Part shown: positions 1-3,280 of the stretch, piece by piece
Layout: the number at the start of each line of letters is the position of its first letter
How positions within the stretch are numbered: position 1 is the stretch's first letter
NCBI GenBank assembly: GCA_000004695.1
Contig: CH709164.1
Location: 1-3,280 of the forward strand
Source: Dictyostelium discoideum
Taxonomy: Eukaryota
Reading direction: 5' to 3'
DNA length: 3,280 nt
The notes under the pieces: generated by a model
The model's input: only the letters and a program-made list of their open reading frames with translations
Database searches by the model: none
What the model was told of the DNA's origin: nothing
Program-made: the position numbers and the translations under genes

Positions 1-89
1 GATATATTAATCAGTGGTGTTCTTTTCCTAGATTCGTAATCTGCTATCTTTCACAGAGGCATTGGTTTATTTCAGTTGCTCCAATTCAA

Positions 90-434
90 ATGTTAGAAGA
101 ACTTTACACTATGAGTAAATCTTCAAAATATTCAAATCAAGTACTTTTTTCAAGTGGTAAAGAAGAATATTTATCAAGTTTTAATAACTTTATATCTCAA
201 AGATTTGATGATTTTAAAATTATACTTCAAGAAGTTTCATCATTTAATGATAATAATAATAATAATAATGAATTACAACTATTTAAAAATTTAAAAATTG
301 ATTCAAATTTATTAATGAAATATACAGATACTATAATTACTTTAATTTCAGAGAAAAAACAAAATTTAATTGATAATGATGATAATCAATTTAATGATGA
401 AGTCTTGGGAACCATCAACTCTCAAAGTATATAG
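90..434 (+). CDS. Hypothetical low-complexity ORF (poly-Asn). Frame +3 is open from window position 3, so it may continue upstream of the window. It is possibly the C-terminal tail of the element's upstream ORF, and it overlaps the YR ORF in another frame across 370-434.
   Basis: Frame +3 runs from position 3 to the TAG at 432-434. Codon usage is Dictyostelium-like (AAT, GAT, TTA) at about 20% GC, with (AAT)6 at 252-269. I recognise no conserved domain. Composition jumps to about 38% GC near 400, where the YR domain begins. Confidence 0.3.
   Translation: MLEELYTMSKSSKYSNQVLFSSGKEEYLSSFNNFISQRFDDFKIILQEVSSFNDNNNNNNELQLFKNLKIDSNLLMKYTDTIITLISEKKQNLIDNDDNQFNDEVLGTINSQSI
246..269. repeat. Trinucleotide tract aat gat (aat)6, encoding NDNNNNNN in ORF 90..434.
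   Basis: Read directly. Confidence 0.9.
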
Positions 435-1316
435 CTCCAGTTATACAAGATTCCGCAATTTCTGTACTTTGAACTCTTTGAATCCAGCAAACATTACCTT
501 AGTTGTTTTCATGGATTATCTTACACATCTTTTCAAGCACAAACCTCCGTTAGCCTTCTCAACAATTAACGGTCATAGCTCTATGTTGAATCAGTTGTTG
601 CTCCTTAGGAATCAAACTGATATTGTTAATGATCCATTCATTACAAGAATTATAACTGGTATTCACAAGTTACGTCCTTCATCAGCAAAGTATAAAGAGA
701 TATGGGATGCAAATCAAGTATTCAAGCACTTATCTACTATCAAAGTCATCCCCAAGTTCACATACACTGCGCTATTAAACAAGACACTTGTTCTCTGTAA
801 AATGTTTGGTTTAGCAAGATCATAAGACTTGGTGAAGTGGTCGTTCAAAGGTCTCATTATTACTACTGACTCAATCAAAGGTCCAGTTATTAATGCTAAA
901 GAACAAAGAAGTGGTGTTGTTTCAATCTTATAATTAACTTCGTTAGATGATACAAACTCCCAAGTATGTCCTGTTCGCCTCCTTGCAACATACCTTAGAG
1001 CCTCTAAAGGAAGAAGAAAGCCCCATTCGGGTGACTCTGTCTTTGTTAAGAATGAGGGTGAACCTCTGGAAGTTAATGATATTAATTCAATTGTATTATC
1101 AACACTCTCAAGCTCCGGTATTGATACTAGCAAGTTCAAATCTCACTCTACCCGTTCAGCTATGGCTTCTCTGTGCTGTTGTCCAATAATGTTCCTTTCC
1201 ACGTTGTCAATAAGATGAGTCGCTGGAAATCAAACGATACTGTAGATACCTTCTACGATAAAAGAATCATTGGTGAAAAATCTGGTGCCACTATTTATAC
1301 GTTTTTATTTTCTTAA
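370..1316 (+). pseudogene. DIRS-like tyrosine recombinase (integrase-family YR), copy 1. It is disrupted by in-frame TAA codons at 823-825 and 931-933 and by a 2-bp (tg) insertion frameshift at about 1172-1175, which moves the reading frame from +1 to +3.
   Basis: The translation carries the YR N-terminal core-binding-like segment (SWEPSTLKVY...FRNFC...VVFMDYL...FSTINGHSS). Box I reads GLARS*DLVKWSF, with the TAA at 823 sitting at the usual Glu of R-x-x-E-L. A K-E-x-R hairpin region (NAKEQRSG) and box II H-x-x-R (KFKSHSTRSAMAS) follow. After the frameshift come RWKSNDTVDTFYDKR, which holds the W and the catalytic Tyr, and a stop at 1314-1316. The ORF track splits this gene across 370..825 (+1) and an off-frame 947..1189. 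Confidence 0.75.
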
Positions 1317-1417
1317 AAATTTCGCAAAACTCATAAAAATAAGTGTTTTCGACCCTTCACAACTTTCTGCACTGTGTCGGTTCGGAATTTTTATGTTTTT
1401 CGACCTTGCGCAATGAT
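1284..1417 (-). repeat. Truncated inverted copy of the distal roughly 120 bp of the 291-bp HSE-bearing unit. It behaves like a right-terminal inverted repeat abutting the YR stop codon.
   Basis: By manual alignment, 1284-1417 is the reverse complement of about 2266-2386 and 2561-2699 at roughly 90% identity, including ggtgccactatttatacg matched to cgtataaatagtggcac. The homology stops abruptly after caatgatcg at 1417. Confidence 0.85.
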
Positions 1418-2100
1418 CGAAGACAGGGGCCTCACGCATGCTAACCAAAGCAAAAGCTTTATTAAGTAAAATAAAAATACTGTTCGATATTATACGAACG
1501 AGCCTTCGTAAACGACGCATGTCTGTGATTATAGCAAACACGGACTCCCTTAACTGGGAGCCTTACTATGCCCCCATACGTTTTTCAACTATACACTATC
1601 TCTGTATAATACTCACTTATTAAAGGAATACCCATGCAAACACTCATTTTAAACTGGAAGGCGATTCAGTCGACCGACCAAGGTTTACACCCGAGAGCAA
1701 AACCAATGACTTGACTATAAACAGGACATTGTCGGTGAATTATTTGAACCAACTGATATCCACCCTGATATCACGTGGACTGTACTAGATTACAGTCATC
1801 GCGACTATACAGGCGATATCTATTACGATCTCTTTGCCTTTAAAGGTGACGATGATGTAGGTGACGAAGAGAGTCAGTTAGAGACTCTGTTATACCTCAC
1901 TACACCAACTGAGATAGATTTTAACTTATTGGCGTTTGGGGCAATTTCAGTAATTGACGATGGTGAAGGGGATTGACATTCTTAGTAGATGGTATGGCAA
2001 TCGTGGAATTACGGTTTACTGTAGAATCAACCTGTTGTAGAATCATATATACTGACACAACGGTCATTGGACTTTATACAGAACAGGGTCAGGGGTGTTT
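1418..2100. other. Unique central segment at roughly 40% GC, lying between the two inverted repeat blocks. I cannot place its origin. Its last roughly 30 bp show weak similarity to the unit end.
   Basis: I find no match to any other part of the window. GC content is clearly higher than in the flanking AT-rich repeats. It contains small direct repeats: ctgatatc twice (1753 and 1765) and tgtagaatca twice (2019 and 2035). Confidence 0.5.
1710..1976 (+). other. Met-less open frame of 88 codons bounded by TGA codons. It is acidic (GDDDVGDEESQLETLLYL...). It could be an exon or captured coding fragment, or chance.
   Basis: I translated frame +3 codon by codon from 1710 to 1973 and found no stop. 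A TGA sits at 1707-1709 and another at 1974-1976. There is no ATG, which is why the ORF track does not list it. Confidence 0.2.
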
Positions 2101-2198
2101 ATGACAGTCTTTGAGTTTGCGAAATTTATATTATCATATATATATATTATGAATAACATTTATTTATTTGAATTTCCCAAATATTTAAGATAATTTTT

Positions 2199-2216
2199 TA
2201 GAATGTTCTAGAACAT
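2199..2216. promoter_or_regulatory. Heat-shock element in unit 1. Three alternating perfect pentamers (aGAAt gTTCt aGAAc) sit inside the 14-bp perfect palindrome atgttctagaacat. An A-rich TATA-like run (aagaataaaaaaa) follows.
   Basis: tagaatgttctagaacat matches the Pelham consensus CTnGAAnnTTCnAG at 13 of 14 positions. The palindrome was checked by hand. Confidence 0.55.
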
Positions 2217-2489
2217 GAGAAGAATAAAAAAATTTCGAAAGAAAAGTAAAAATTTCGAACCGGCACAATGACGCGATCATTGCACAAGGTCGAAAAACTT
2301 AAAAATTCCGAACCGACACTATGCACAAAGTTGTGAAGGGTCGAAAATACTTATTTTTTTGAGTTTTGCGAAATTTTTAAGAAAATTAAAAATTTAATTT
2401 ATTAAATTATATTTTATATTAAATATATATATATATATTATGAATAACATTTATTTATTTGAATTTCCCAAATATTTAAGATAATTTTT

Positions 2490-2507
2490 TAGAATGTTCT
2501 AGAACAT
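2490..2507. promoter_or_regulatory. Heat-shock element in unit 2, identical to the unit-1 HSE and 291 bp downstream of it.
   Basis: The same tagaatgttctagaacat sequence, followed by gagaagaataaaaaat. Confidence 0.55.
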
Positions 2508-2740
2508 GAGAAGAATAAAAAATTTTCGAAAGAAAAGTAAAAATTTCGAACCGGCACAATGACGCGATCATTGTCTAAGGTCGAAAAACTGAAAAATTCC
2601 GAACCGACACTATGCACAAAGTTGTGAAGGGTCGAAAACTCGTATTTTTTTGAGTTTTGTGAAATTTTTAAGAAAATAAAAACGTATAAATAGTGGCACT
2701 AAAAAACTAAAACAATTTGATTTATGGAATTCCGACTTAG

Positions 2741-2756
2741 GGCGGGTGGGATGGGA
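2741..2756 (+). other. Canonical G-quadruplex motif GGGCGGGTGGGATGGG, preceded by TTAGGG.
   Basis: Four GGG runs with loops of 1, 1 and 2 nt, read directly. The surrounding sequence is more than 85% AT. Confidence 0.5.
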
Positions 2757-2818
2757 CTAATATATATATATATAATATAAAAATAATTTAATAAATTAAA
2801 TTTTTAATTTATATTATC

Positions 2819-2842
2819 ATATATATATATATATATATATAT
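2819..2842. repeat. (AT)12 microsatellite. Shorter (AT)7-8 tracts sit at 2423-2438 and 2761-2776.
   Basis: Read directly. Confidence 0.9.
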
Positions 2843-3280
2843 TATGAAATTTGGACGACAGTATTTAAGAAACCACCAGATTTTTCACCAATGATTCTTT
2901 TATCGTAGAAGGTATCTACAGTATCATTTGATTTCCAACGACCCATCTTCTTGACAACGTGGAACGGAACGTTATTTGACAACAGCAGAGAAGCCATAGC
3001 GGAACGGGTAGAGTGAGATTTGAACTTGACAATATCAATACCTGACTTTGAGAGTGTTGATAGTACAATTGAGTTCCTCTCATTAACTTAGAGAGGTTCC
3101 CCCTCATTCTTAATAAAGACAGAGTCACCCGAATGGGGCTTTCTTCCTCCTTTAGAGGCTCTAAGGTATGTTACAAGGTGGCGAACAGGGCATACTTGAG
3201 AGTTGGTATCATCTAATGATGATAATTCTAAGATTGAAACAACACCACTTCTTTGTTCTTTAGCATTGATAACGTGGCCC
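2842..3280 (-). pseudogene. DIRS-like tyrosine recombinase, copy 2. This is the 3' portion; the 5' end runs off the window. It has an in-frame TAA (seen on + as tta at 3088-3090), and its C-terminus is altered by the 174-bp segment, with the stop falling at 2842-2844.
   Basis: The reverse complement of 2874-3280 aligns to copy 1 at 880-1290 at roughly 90-92% identity. Its translation is ...NAKEQRSGVVSILELSSLDD...KPHSGDSVFIKNEGEPL*VNERNSIVLSTLSKSGIDIVKFKSHSTRSAMASLLLSNNVPFHVVKKMGRWKSNDTVDTFYDKRIIGEKSGG... The frame is continuous through box II and the Tyr motif because this copy has no tg insertion. Confidence 0.75.

What the first reader, a model, noticed from the sequence alone, without database searches (positions are those of the whole stretch)
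2127..2699. Palindromic heat-shock elements in tandem terminal-repeat units face into the antisense strand of YR copy 2
Each 291-bp unit carries tagaatgttctagaacat. This holds three perfect alternating nGAAn and nTTCn units inside a perfect 14-bp palindrome, followed by an A-rich TATA-like run. The units are oriented so that transcription initiating downstream of the HSE runs toward and antisense to the - strand YR gene. That mirrors the heat-shock-inducible antisense transcript reported from the right terminal repeat of Dictyostelium DIRS-1. Having two tandem promoter units is unusual and could increase output.
Basis: partly seen in the sequence, partly recalled or inferred. Interest (0 to 1): 0.6.

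Follow-up and report, generated by a model that had tools for sequence, protein, structure and literature searches.

The report
Known DIRS-1 heat-shock promoter repeats
The two heat-shock elements are real, but they sit in terminal repeats of the classic Dictyostelium retrotransposon DIRS-1, whose heat-shock promoter was described in 1984, and the "tandem" pair is best explained by one DIRS-1 copy having landed inside the terminal repeat of another.

Summary
A 291-bp tandem period spans 2136-2682, and TAGAATGTTCTAGAACAT occurs exactly at 2199-2216 and 2490-2507. Each copy holds three perfect nGAAn/nTTCn units and a 14-bp palindrome.

The window is an unplaced 3280-bp contig of Dictyostelium discoideum AX4 made of decayed DIRS-1 pieces. 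Unit 2 (2387-2725) is the complete right terminal repeat of a minus-strand DIRS-1 copy. It is followed by the internal complementary region (2758-2841) and the recombinase ORF (2842-3280), as in canonical elements. Its promoter faces inward, antisense to that ORF. This matches the published heat-shock E1 and lasDIRS-1 antisense RNAs.

Unit 1 (2124-2386) is not a duplicated promoter. It has a left-repeat-type outer end and is cut 39 bp before its inner end by the canonical right terminus of copy 2. It therefore lacks the TATAAATA box that is conserved across species (2685-2692 in unit 2). This is best read as a nested DIRS-into-DIRS insertion.

Both HSEs carry a TC-to-GA change that removes the fourth pentamer found in most of the other D. 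discoideum copies examined.

This is already known biology and of low interest. In passing, 1420-2110 is a decayed fragment related to a jumbo phage.

The parts
2124..2386 (+). Unit 1: a DIRS-1 LTR with a left-LTR-type outer terminus ((A)TT|TATATTATCAT(AT)n). It is truncated 39 bp before the inner end and lacks the TATAAATA box. It belongs to a different element from copy 2, presumably a plus-strand one.
   Evidence: The alignment with three left LTRs that have unrelated flanks diverges exactly upstream of ATTTATATTATC. It is 90-96% identical to LTRs in L001-L003. The inner break is at GAAAAT|TAAAAATTT.
2199..2216 (+). Heat-shock element 1, with three perfect pentamers aGAAt gTTCt aGAAc. The fourth canonical unit is destroyed by TC>GA at 2217-2218.
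2387..2725 (+). Unit 2: the complete right LTR of minus-strand DIRS-1 copy 2. On the + strand it reads from outer to inner end. Its outer terminus is the right-LTR type, TAAAAATTTAATTTATTAAATTATATTTTATATTAAAT(AT)n.
   Evidence: Window 2381-3279 is colinear with L001 8404-7506 (90.9%). Window 2384-3274 matches L002 932-46 (95.2%) and 2386-3273 matches L002 6428-5544 (95.7%). Five independent insertions show the same terminus.
2490..2507 (+). Heat-shock element 2, identical to element 1, with the same TC>GA change at 2508-2509.
2685..2692 (+). TATAAATA box, about 33 bp from the inner end of the LTR. It is the likely core promoter for inward (here antisense) transcription. It is absent from unit 1.
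   Evidence: GTATAAA and the following CAATTTGATTTAT are invariant in LTRs of D. discoideum, D. citrinum, D. firmibasis and D. dimigraforme. The transcript is about 4500 nt against a 4814-bp element, and the cDNA lacks about 300 nt of the left LTR (PMC7192593).
2758..2841 (-). Internal complementary region (ICR) of copy 2. The L' part is complementary to the left-LTR 5' end, and the R' part is complementary to the right-LTR 3' end.
   Evidence: 2806-2830 equals 2123-2147 at 25/25 (D5). 2383-2414 against 2779-2810 is 97% complementary (I8). The right terminus 2383-2434 matches the reverse complement of the ICR at 50 of 52 aligned positions. This fits the published 33+55-nt ICR.
2842..3280 (-). 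3' part of the tyrosine recombinase ORF of DIRS-1 copy 2. It is a pseudogene with an in-frame stop and ends ...GGFLNTVVQIS*.
   Evidence: Translation. Homologues end with the same C-terminus. Pfam Phage_integrase hit at 1e-09.
2111..2126 (+). A 14-16-nt remnant (TTGAGTTTGCGAAAtt) of an older LTR, into which the element of unit 1 appears to have inserted.
   Evidence: It matches the LTR segment TTGAGTTTTGCGAAATT (2360-2376) with one T missing, read. This is an inference.
397..1287 (+). DIRS-1 recombinase fragment, copy 1. It is truncated at the 5' end and carries stops and a frameshift.
   Evidence: It is 90-96% identical to recombinase copies in L001-L003.
1285..1419 (-). Inner 135 nt of the right LTR of copy 1, fused directly to the recombinase ORF so that the ICR is deleted. 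It contains TATAAATA (reverse complement of 1292-1299) but no HSE.
   Evidence: I2 and I3. The same ICR-less fusion is present in L002 3536-4077, colinear with window 872-1419.

Best explanation
The window is a decayed patch of a Dictyostelium discoideum DIRS-1 cluster. The feature at 2124-2725 consists of two DIRS-1 long terminal repeats from two different element copies lying head to tail.

Unit 2 is the intact right LTR of a minus-strand DIRS-1 copy (copy 2). Next to it lie that copy's internal complementary region and the 3' end of its recombinase ORF. Unit 1 is the left-type LTR of another copy. Copy 2 integrated into it at an AAT trinucleotide (2384-2386), 39 bp short of its inner end. 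DIRS-1 is known to insert preferentially into existing DIRS-1 sequence.

Each LTR carries the well-known DIRS-1 heat-shock element about 75-100 bp from its outer end. In a complete LTR, heat-shock factor bound there would activate transcription that starts near the conserved TATAAATA box at the inner end and runs into the element. From a right LTR this produces antisense RNA: the published heat- and stress-induced 900-nt E1 RNA and the 4-kb lasDIRS-1 RNA. Here that RNA would run through the ICR and antisense to recombinase copy 2.

Unit 1 has lost its own TATA box and start region. At most it contributes a second upstream HSE, 291 bp further from unit 2's core promoter. Both HSEs belong to a sub-lineage in which the fourth pentamer has mutated.

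Shown here: the identity, anatomy, termini, ICR complementarity, orientation and conservation. Inferred: the order of insertion, the position of the transcription start, and any activity of these particular decayed copies.
For: Identity. The recombinase is 96% identical to D. discoideum proteins, and AX4 model DDB_G0294286 lies on a contig of exactly 3280 bp and is built from window reading frames.

Canonical 3' end. Window 2381-3279 is colinear with recombinase-ICR-right LTR in three other strains at 91-96%. L002 15790-20609 is a full 4.82-kb element whose left LTR reads HSE, then TATAAATA, then ORFs.

Two kinds of terminus. The left type begins at 2124-2127. Several other left-type LTR copies begin with the same ATTTATATTATCAT sequence, and those whose flanks were read have unrelated flanks. 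The right type, TAAAAATTTAATTT, begins at 2387. Five independent right ends begin there, each preceded by AAT, ATT or GTT.

ICR complementarity matches the published 33+55-nt design.

The HSE is present in 15 LTR copies in L001-L003 as TTAGAATGTTCTAGAACAT, followed by TCGAAG in 14 of them and TTGAAG in one. The TGAG variant is shared with the L002 6087-6427 LTR, so it marks a sub-lineage.

TATAAATA and the termini are conserved in four Dictyostelium species.

Literature. The heat-shock E1 antisense RNA, a GFP reporter driven by the right LTR, and the left LTR driving sense RNA are reported in PMC3950715. The ICR, the 4814-bp and 4500-nt sizes, and preferential insertion into DIRS-1 are in PMC7192593 and PMC5633606. 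Zuker et al. [quoted passage not shown]
Against: The other side of the proposed nested insertion would hold the missing 39 bp of unit 1 and that element's interior. It lies beyond the contig end and was not seen.

The contig is an unplaced shotgun contig from a highly repeated family, and it also contains phage-like DNA. Misassembly or chimerism therefore cannot be excluded.

No expression data were available. Both copies are pseudogenised and lie in RNAi-controlled heterochromatin.

Published statements disagree on how much of each LTR is missing from the mRNA (PMC5633606 against PMC7192593), so the start site near TATAAATA is an inference. E1 could instead start just after the A-rich run next to the HSE.

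The perfect HSE is not conserved in the sampled D. dimigraforme, D. citrinum or D. firmibasis LTRs. It is therefore a lineage-specific regulatory addition, not a core part of the LTR.
Confidence: 0.85

Rival explanations
1. This is a true tandem duplication of one LTR within a single element, by unequal crossing-over or replication slippage. It creates a two-unit heat-shock promoter that raises antisense output.
For: The period is a regular 291 bp and the units are 96% identical. The outer 138 bp differ at only one position, and the units share the TGAG variant. An internal 85-bp duplication that doubles the HSE region does exist in another LTR, L003 14726-15139. LTR-internal duplications therefore do occur.
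Against: A simple duplication would give identical boundaries and a b|a junction. Instead, unit 1 starts with the left-type terminus and unit 2 starts with the full right-type terminus, 40 bp of which is absent before unit 1. Unit 2's inner 39 bp is absent from unit 1. The junction is exactly the canonical right end seen at five independent insertions. The TGAG variant also occurs in another strain's LTR, so it does not require a local copying event. Mismatches concentrated in the CpG-containing inner half are also seen by eye between other LTR copies in the same alignment, though this was not counted. Unit 1 lacks the conserved TATA box.
Confidence: 0.05
2. The head-to-tail arrangement, and perhaps the whole contig, is an assembly or cloning artefact. 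Reads from different DIRS-1 copies and a contaminating phage were joined together.
For: The window is an unplaced 3280-bp AX4 contig. DIRS-1 is highly repeated. Bases 1420-2110 are 87-96% identical to a jumbo-phage-like Logan contig. That sequence and bases 1-396 have no counterpart in the proteins or loci of other D. discoideum strains.
Against: The 2386/2387 junction has no shared repeat across which a misjoin could form, and it coincides to the base with a genuine DIRS-1 terminus. The two units differ at about 10 positions, so they are not a collapsed or duplicated read. Nested, truncated DIRS-1 junctions of this kind are common in long-read assemblies of other strains. The phage-like ORF carries a nonsense codon and three indels, which is unexpected for DNA from a live contaminant.
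Confidence: 0.1

Closest known systems
Dictyostelium discoideum DIRS-1 (Tdd-1) LTR/ITR heat-shock promoter and the E1 and lasDIRS-1 antisense transcripts (Zuker et al. 1984; Cohen et al. 1984; Cappello et al. 1985; Wiegand et al. 2014, PMC3950715)
   Same: It is the same element in the same species. LTR sequence is 90-98% identical to other genomic copies. The HSE sits at the same place in the LTR. The order is the same: recombinase, ICR, right LTR. The promoter faces inward in the same way, so the right LTR drives antisense RNA.
   Different: These copies are decayed. The recombinase ORFs contain stops. The HSE has lost its fourth pentamer (TC>GA). The right LTR abuts a truncated left-type LTR of another copy, giving a head-to-tail pair.
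Canonical eukaryotic heat-shock element (contiguous inverted nGAAn pentamers bound by HSF trimers)
   Same: There are three contiguous perfect alternating pentamers, and four in the canonical DIRS-1 LTR, embedded in a palindrome upstream of a TATA box.
   Different: The distance to the conserved TATAAATA is about 180 bp for unit 2 and about 470 bp for unit 1's HSE. HSF binding was not tested here.
Nested DIRS-into-DIRS insertions in D. discoideum centromeric clusters (Cappello et al. 1984; PMC7192593; PMC5633606)
   Same: A complete element terminus abuts an internal position of another DIRS-1 copy with no target-site duplication. An A/T-rich trinucleotide (AAT) lies at the junction, as at other insertions in L001-L003.
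   Different: The target here happens to be an LTR in the same orientation, so two promoters lie in tandem. No other full head-to-tail pair was found among 20 LTR hits in 64 kb of clusters from other strains.

Membership tests
DIRS-1 retrotransposon of Dictyostelium discoideum | Encodes a tyrosine recombinase (Phage_integrase fold) closely related to DIRS-1 copies | tested here: met
   Up to 96% identity to D. discoideum proteins. Pfam PF00589 hit at 1e-09.
DIRS-1 retrotransposon of Dictyostelium discoideum | Terminal repeats of about 320-340 bp, inverted at the two ends of a roughly 4.8-kb element | tested here: met
   Reference element L002 15790-20609 (4.82 kb) has inverted LTRs 92-96% identical to the window units. 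In the window itself only the right LTR of copy 2 is visible, because the contig ends.
DIRS-1 retrotransposon of Dictyostelium discoideum | An internal complementary region next to the right LTR, complementary to the left-LTR 5' end and the right-LTR 3' end | tested here: met
   D5 25/25 and I8 97%. The right terminus matches the reverse complement of the ICR at 50 of 52 aligned positions. The published design is in PMC7192593.
DIRS-1 retrotransposon of Dictyostelium discoideum | Alignment to the published reference sequence M11339 | not testable with these tools
   The reference record is not in any searchable collection here. Genomic copies from other strains were used as a proxy.
DIRS-1 LTR heat-shock promoter (E1 antisense) | Heat-shock consensus inside the LTR, oriented toward the element interior | tested here: met
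.
DIRS-1 LTR heat-shock promoter (E1 antisense) | Heat-inducible transcription start within the right LTR | not testable with these tools
   No expression data were available. It is reported in the literature for DIRS-1 in general (PMC3950715).
DIRS-1 LTR heat-shock promoter (E1 antisense) | A complete core promoter (conserved TATAAATA and inner end) downstream of the HSE | tested here: met
   Met for unit 2 (2685-2692). Not met for unit 1, which ends at 2386.
Eukaryotic HSE | At least three contiguous inverted nGAAn pentamers | tested here: met
   aGAAt gTTCt aGAAc at 2200-2214 and 2491-2505.
Eukaryotic HSE | Bound by heat-shock factor | not testable with these tools
   Needs ChIP or EMSA.
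Single-event tandem duplication of a promoter unit | Both copies share the same boundaries, and the junction joins the end of the unit to its start | tested here: not met
   Unit 1 has the left-type terminus and unit 2 the right-type terminus. The inner 39 bp is present only in unit 2.

The most novel reading that the evidence does not exclude
The contig is a faithful picture of an AX4 centromeric locus in which two things are true. First, the head-to-tail LTR pair acts as a compound heat-shock promoter, with unit 1's HSE serving as an extra upstream enhancer for unit 2's core promoter. Second, the 690-bp jumbo-phage-derived fragment at 1420-2110, wedged between DIRS-1 LTR remnants immediately upstream, is genuine phage DNA captured into the amoeba genome and since decayed. 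It would then be neither a cloning nor an assembly contaminant.
Probability: 0.15. Interest if true: 0.45.

Novelty: already known. Interest (0 to 1): 0.1.

Why it matters
The finding matters little in itself. It rediscovers the DIRS-1 LTR heat-shock promoter and its antisense orientation, both in the literature since 1983-84, with right-LTR promoter activity reconfirmed by reporter in 2014.

The analysis gives a base-level account of how two LTR promoters came to lie in tandem, namely by nested insertion at a canonical terminus. It shows that the upstream unit lacks the conserved TATA box. It also shows that the perfect HSE was found only in D. discoideum among the DIRS-1 LTRs sampled from four Dictyostelium species, whereas the TATA box and termini are conserved in all four. 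These points are useful for anyone annotating DIRS clusters or assigning multi-mapping RNA reads.

If the adjacent phage-like fragment were a real genomic insertion, it would be a rare case of bacteriophage DNA captured by a bacterivorous amoeba. It may equally be contamination.

Tried and rejected
1. I first recalled that the DIRS-1 recombinase ORF lies upstream of the reverse transcriptase, which would make the recombinase-LTR adjacency here non-canonical. I rejected this. In three other strains the order is RT/RNase H, recombinase, ICR, right LTR, colinear with window 2381-3279.
2. I suspected the shared TC>GA variant was private to the two units, which would imply local duplication or gene conversion. 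I rejected this because the L002 6087-6427 LTR carries the same variant. My first motif filter had missed it.
3. The mosaic identity (outer half 1 mismatch, inner half about 9) could be a sign of gene conversion. This is not needed, because by eye other LTR pairs in the alignment also differ mostly in the CpG-containing inner half (not counted).
4. I tested 1420-2125 for E. coli or plasmid origin and found no match. Pfam and PHROGs gave nothing for its reading frame. IMG/VR and an exact 43-mer scan of GTDB genomes found nothing. Rfam on the whole window found nothing.
5. Look-ups of the AX4 proteins P0036, P0066 and P0013 for genomic context returned no records.
6. The old primary papers (PMC369062, PMC311061) are not held. 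A literature search found no base-level TSS or TATA data for DIRS-1. A search for the SRA run of the phage-like contig found nothing.
7. A regular-expression scan for 3-unit HSEs in loci from D. dimigraforme, D. firmibasis and D. citrinum found none. The alignment shows only degenerate versions or a deletion at that position.

Full report
OBSERVATION

The window contains a tandem repeat at 2136-2682 with period 291, 1.9 copies and 96% matches. The repeat finder reports it as 2136-2391 against 2427-2682. The 18-mer TAGAATGTTCTAGAACAT is exact at 2199-2216 and 2490-2507, where shuffles predict 0.01 matches. The three-pentamer heat-shock pattern GAAnnTTCnnGAA occurs at 2201-2213 and 2492-2504. 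A third, unrelated match at 226-238(-) is at the chance level of 0.10 per window. ATGTTCTAGAACAT is a perfect 14-bp palindrome. Because the two copies lie in a repeat, they count as one motif inherited twice.

IDENTITY

The reading frames at about 400-1287(+) and 2842-3280(-) encode tyrosine recombinase fragments. Pfam gives Phage_integrase at 1e-09. A composite of the two is 96% identical to Dictyostelium discoideum proteins. One hit, AX4 gene model DDB_G0294286, sits on a contig of exactly 3280 bp and is spliced together from window reading frames. The window is therefore an unplaced D. discoideum AX4 contig, and the element is DIRS-1 itself, not something that resembles it.

CANONICAL ANATOMY FROM OTHER STRAINS

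I fetched three 21-kb DIRS clusters from other D. discoideum assemblies (L001-L003) and compared them with the window by blastn.
- Window 2381-3279 is colinear with L001 8404-7506 at 90.9%.
- Window 2384-3274 matches L002 932-46 at 95.2%, and window 2386-3273 matches L002 6428-5544 at 95.7%.
- L003 copies match at 91%.

Recombinase ORF, then an AT-rich spacer, then the LTR is therefore the normal 3' end of DIRS-1. L002 15790-20609 is a full 4.82-kb element with inverted LTRs. Its left LTR reads HSE, then TATAAATA, then inner end, then ORFs. LTR similarity extends inward to window 2725. Beyond that point right LTRs continue GGAATTCCGACTTAGGGCGGG..., as the window does, while left LTRs continue TTTATTTGGGAATTCC...ACACACA.

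[quoted passage not shown] Bases 2806-2830 are identical to the left-type terminus at 2123-2147 (25/25; D5). The right-LTR terminus at 2383-2434 matches the reverse complement of the ICR at 50 of 52 aligned positions (I8). This is the published design of 33 nt complementary to the left end plus 55 nt complementary to the right end (PMC7192593).

WHAT THE TANDEM IS

The two kinds of LTR have different outer termini.
- Left-type LTRs begin (A)TT|TATATTATCAT(AT)nTATGAATAAC. Several other left-type copies begin with the same sequence, and those whose flanks were read have unrelated flanks. Unit 1 begins this way at 2124-2127.
- Right-type LTRs begin TAAAAATTTAATTTATTAAATTATATTTTATATTAAAT(AT)n. Five independent right ends in L002 and L003 start at exactly that T, each preceded by AAT, ATT or GTT. 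In the window this terminus starts at 2387, preceded by AAT.

Up to 2386, unit 1 follows the LTR consensus (...TTTTTAAGAAAAT). The consensus would continue AAAAACGTATAAATAGTGGCAC...GATTTAT. Those 39 bp are missing from unit 1 and present only in unit 2.

The 291-bp period therefore reflects two different objects placed head to tail. One is a left-type LTR cut 39 bp before its inner end. The other is the complete right end of minus-strand copy 2. A single tandem duplication would give equal boundaries and cannot produce this arrangement. DIRS-1 is reported to insert preferentially into existing DIRS-1 copies, and its recombinase is thought to act at a trinucleotide shared by the circle junction and the target (PMC7192593, PMC5633606). 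Nested insertion of copy 2 into the LTR of another copy is therefore the straightforward reading. Immediately upstream of unit 1, a 14-16-nt remnant (2111-2126, TTGAGTTTGCGAAAtt) of a still older LTR suggests one more level of nesting.

Among 20 LTR hits in the 64 kb from other strains, no other full head-to-tail pair occurs. One LTR, L003 14726-15139, has an internal 85-bp duplication that doubles its HSE region.

THE HSE ITSELF

Fifteen LTR copies in L001-L003 read TTAGAATGTTCTAGAACAT at this motif. Fourteen continue TCGAAG and one continues TTGAAG. The 14-copy form has four perfect alternating pentamers inside an 18-bp palindrome. Both window units instead read ...ACATGAGAAG, a TC>GA change at 2217-2218 and 2508-2509 that removes the fourth pentamer. 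The same variant occurs in the L002 6087-6427 LTR, so it marks a DIRS-1 sub-lineage and does not indicate local copying. The two units differ at about 10 positions. Most of these lie in the CpG-containing inner half. By eye, other LTR pairs in the same alignment also differ mainly there, though I did not count this.

Across species the picture is different (alignment A2). The LTR termini and the block GTATAAA...CAATTTGATTTAT are conserved in D. citrinum, D. firmibasis and D. dimigraforme. The perfect HSE is seen only in D. discoideum. D. dimigraforme lacks that 22-nt segment, and the other two species carry degenerate versions.

HOW IT MOST LIKELY WORKS

The literature reports the following.
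- The left LTR drives the 4.5-kb sense RNA.
- Heat shock or stress induces a 900-nt E1 antisense RNA.
- The right LTR, in forward orientation only, drives a GFP reporter and probably the 4-kb lasDIRS-1 antisense RNA (PMC3950715; PMC2175303).
- Zuker et al. [quoted passage not shown]

In the window, unit 2 reads HSE (2490-2507), then TATAAATA (2685-2692), then inner end (2725), then ICR, then the antisense strand of recombinase copy 2.

The element is 4814 bp, the transcript about 4500 nt, and the cDNA lacks about 300 nt of the left LTR (PMC7192593). Together with the cross-species conservation of TATAAATA, this places the main start near the inner end of the LTR, predicted at about 2715-2725. 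This step is an inference, for two reasons. Another review describes only a small part of the left LTR as missing (PMC5633606). I could also find no base-level start-site data.

Unit 1 lacks the TATA box and inner end. It is not a second promoter unit and could at most add an upstream HSE. Copy 2 has an in-frame stop, and DIRS-1 is under RNAi control (PMC3950715). Activity of these particular copies is unknown.

CONTEXT AND CAVEATS

Copy 1 (397-1287, +) is a recombinase fragment with a truncated 5' end, stops and a frameshift. It is fused directly to the inner 135 nt of its right LTR (1285-1419), so the ICR is deleted. The same ICR-less fusion exists in L002 3536-4077.

Between that LTR stub and unit 1 lies 1420-2110, with GC about 0.40-0.43. 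It is not DIRS-1.
- It is 96% and 87% identical to two separated parts of a 2.9-kb Logan contig, L004, which has GC 0.46.
- L004's genes are syntenic with jumbo Erwinia phage pEa_SNUABM_54. The 158-aa ORF matches at 45% identity, P0121 at 27%, and a phrog_2921 or head-protein-like ORF at 66%.
- The window copy has a roughly 770-bp internal deletion, three indels and a TGG>TGA nonsense codon. pN/pS against L004 is 0.28.

This fragment is either genuine captured DNA that has decayed or a sign that the contig is chimeric. That uncertainty is the main caveat on treating the LTR arrangement as a real locus. Against an artefact, the 2386/2387 junction coincides to the base with a true DIRS-1 terminus.

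VERDICT

It is wrong that they form a duplicated promoter of one element. The biology is already known, so interest is low.

Noticed in passing
window 1420-2110: This GC-richer segment (about 0.40-0.43) sits between two DIRS-1 LTR remnants and is jumbo-phage-like DNA. It is 96% (1434-1535) and 87% (1529-2110) identical to Logan contig SRR13837124_95410 (L004). L004's ORFs are syntenic with Erwinia jumbo phage pEa_SNUABM_54. The window copy has a roughly 770-bp internal deletion, three indels and a TGG>TGA stop in the homologue of P0121. It is either real captured phage DNA that has decayed or a chimeric or contaminated AX4 contig. AX4 gene model DDB_G0294286 splices an 'exon' out of it.
   Followed up: partly
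window 1-396: This AT-rich sequence is not DIRS-1. It holds a 114-aa poly-Asn-containing ORF (90-434) that has no relative except the AX4 model on this same contig, and it has no match in L001-L003. Its origin is unknown.
   Followed up: partly
window 1283-1290; L002 3536-4077: Copy 1 has the recombinase ORF fused directly to the right LTR, with the last roughly 10 codons and the whole ICR deleted at a gtg microhomology. The same ICR-less fusion is found in another strain. It is therefore a propagated or ancestral deletion variant, which should be unable to retrotranspose given that the ICR is essential (PMC7192593).
   Followed up: partly
L003 14726-15139 (minus strand): This DIRS-1 LTR has an 85-bp internal tandem duplication, joined at an AATTTC microhomology, that doubles the HSE region. 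The two halves carry markers of different LTR sub-lineages, and both HSEs are damaged (TTCAGAAC and TTCCAGAAC). The LTR combines a right-type outer terminus with a left-type inner flank.
   Followed up: no
alignment A2 (L005, L006, L007 against the window LTR): In DIRS-1 LTRs of D. dimigraforme, D. firmibasis and D. citrinum, the termini and the TATAAA-to-inner-end block are conserved. The perfect HSE was seen only in D. discoideum in this sample. D. dimigraforme lacks the 22-nt segment, and D. firmibasis has only GAAttTTCtgGAG. Only a few copies per species were sampled.
   Followed up: partly
L001 3413 and L002 6428 (equivalent to window position 497/498): A left terminus in one strain and a right terminus in another both abut the recombinase ORF at the same site (...CCAGCAAACATT|ACCTTAG...). 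This suggests a recurrent or inherited nested insertion point inside the recombinase gene.
   Followed up: no
literature (PMC3950715, PMC5633606, PMC7192593): Published descriptions disagree on ORF numbering: the recombinase is called ORF II in one paper and ORF3 in another. They also disagree on how much of each LTR is missing from the DIRS-1 mRNA. The genomic loci examined here place the recombinase at the 3' end, next to the ICR.
   Followed up: partly
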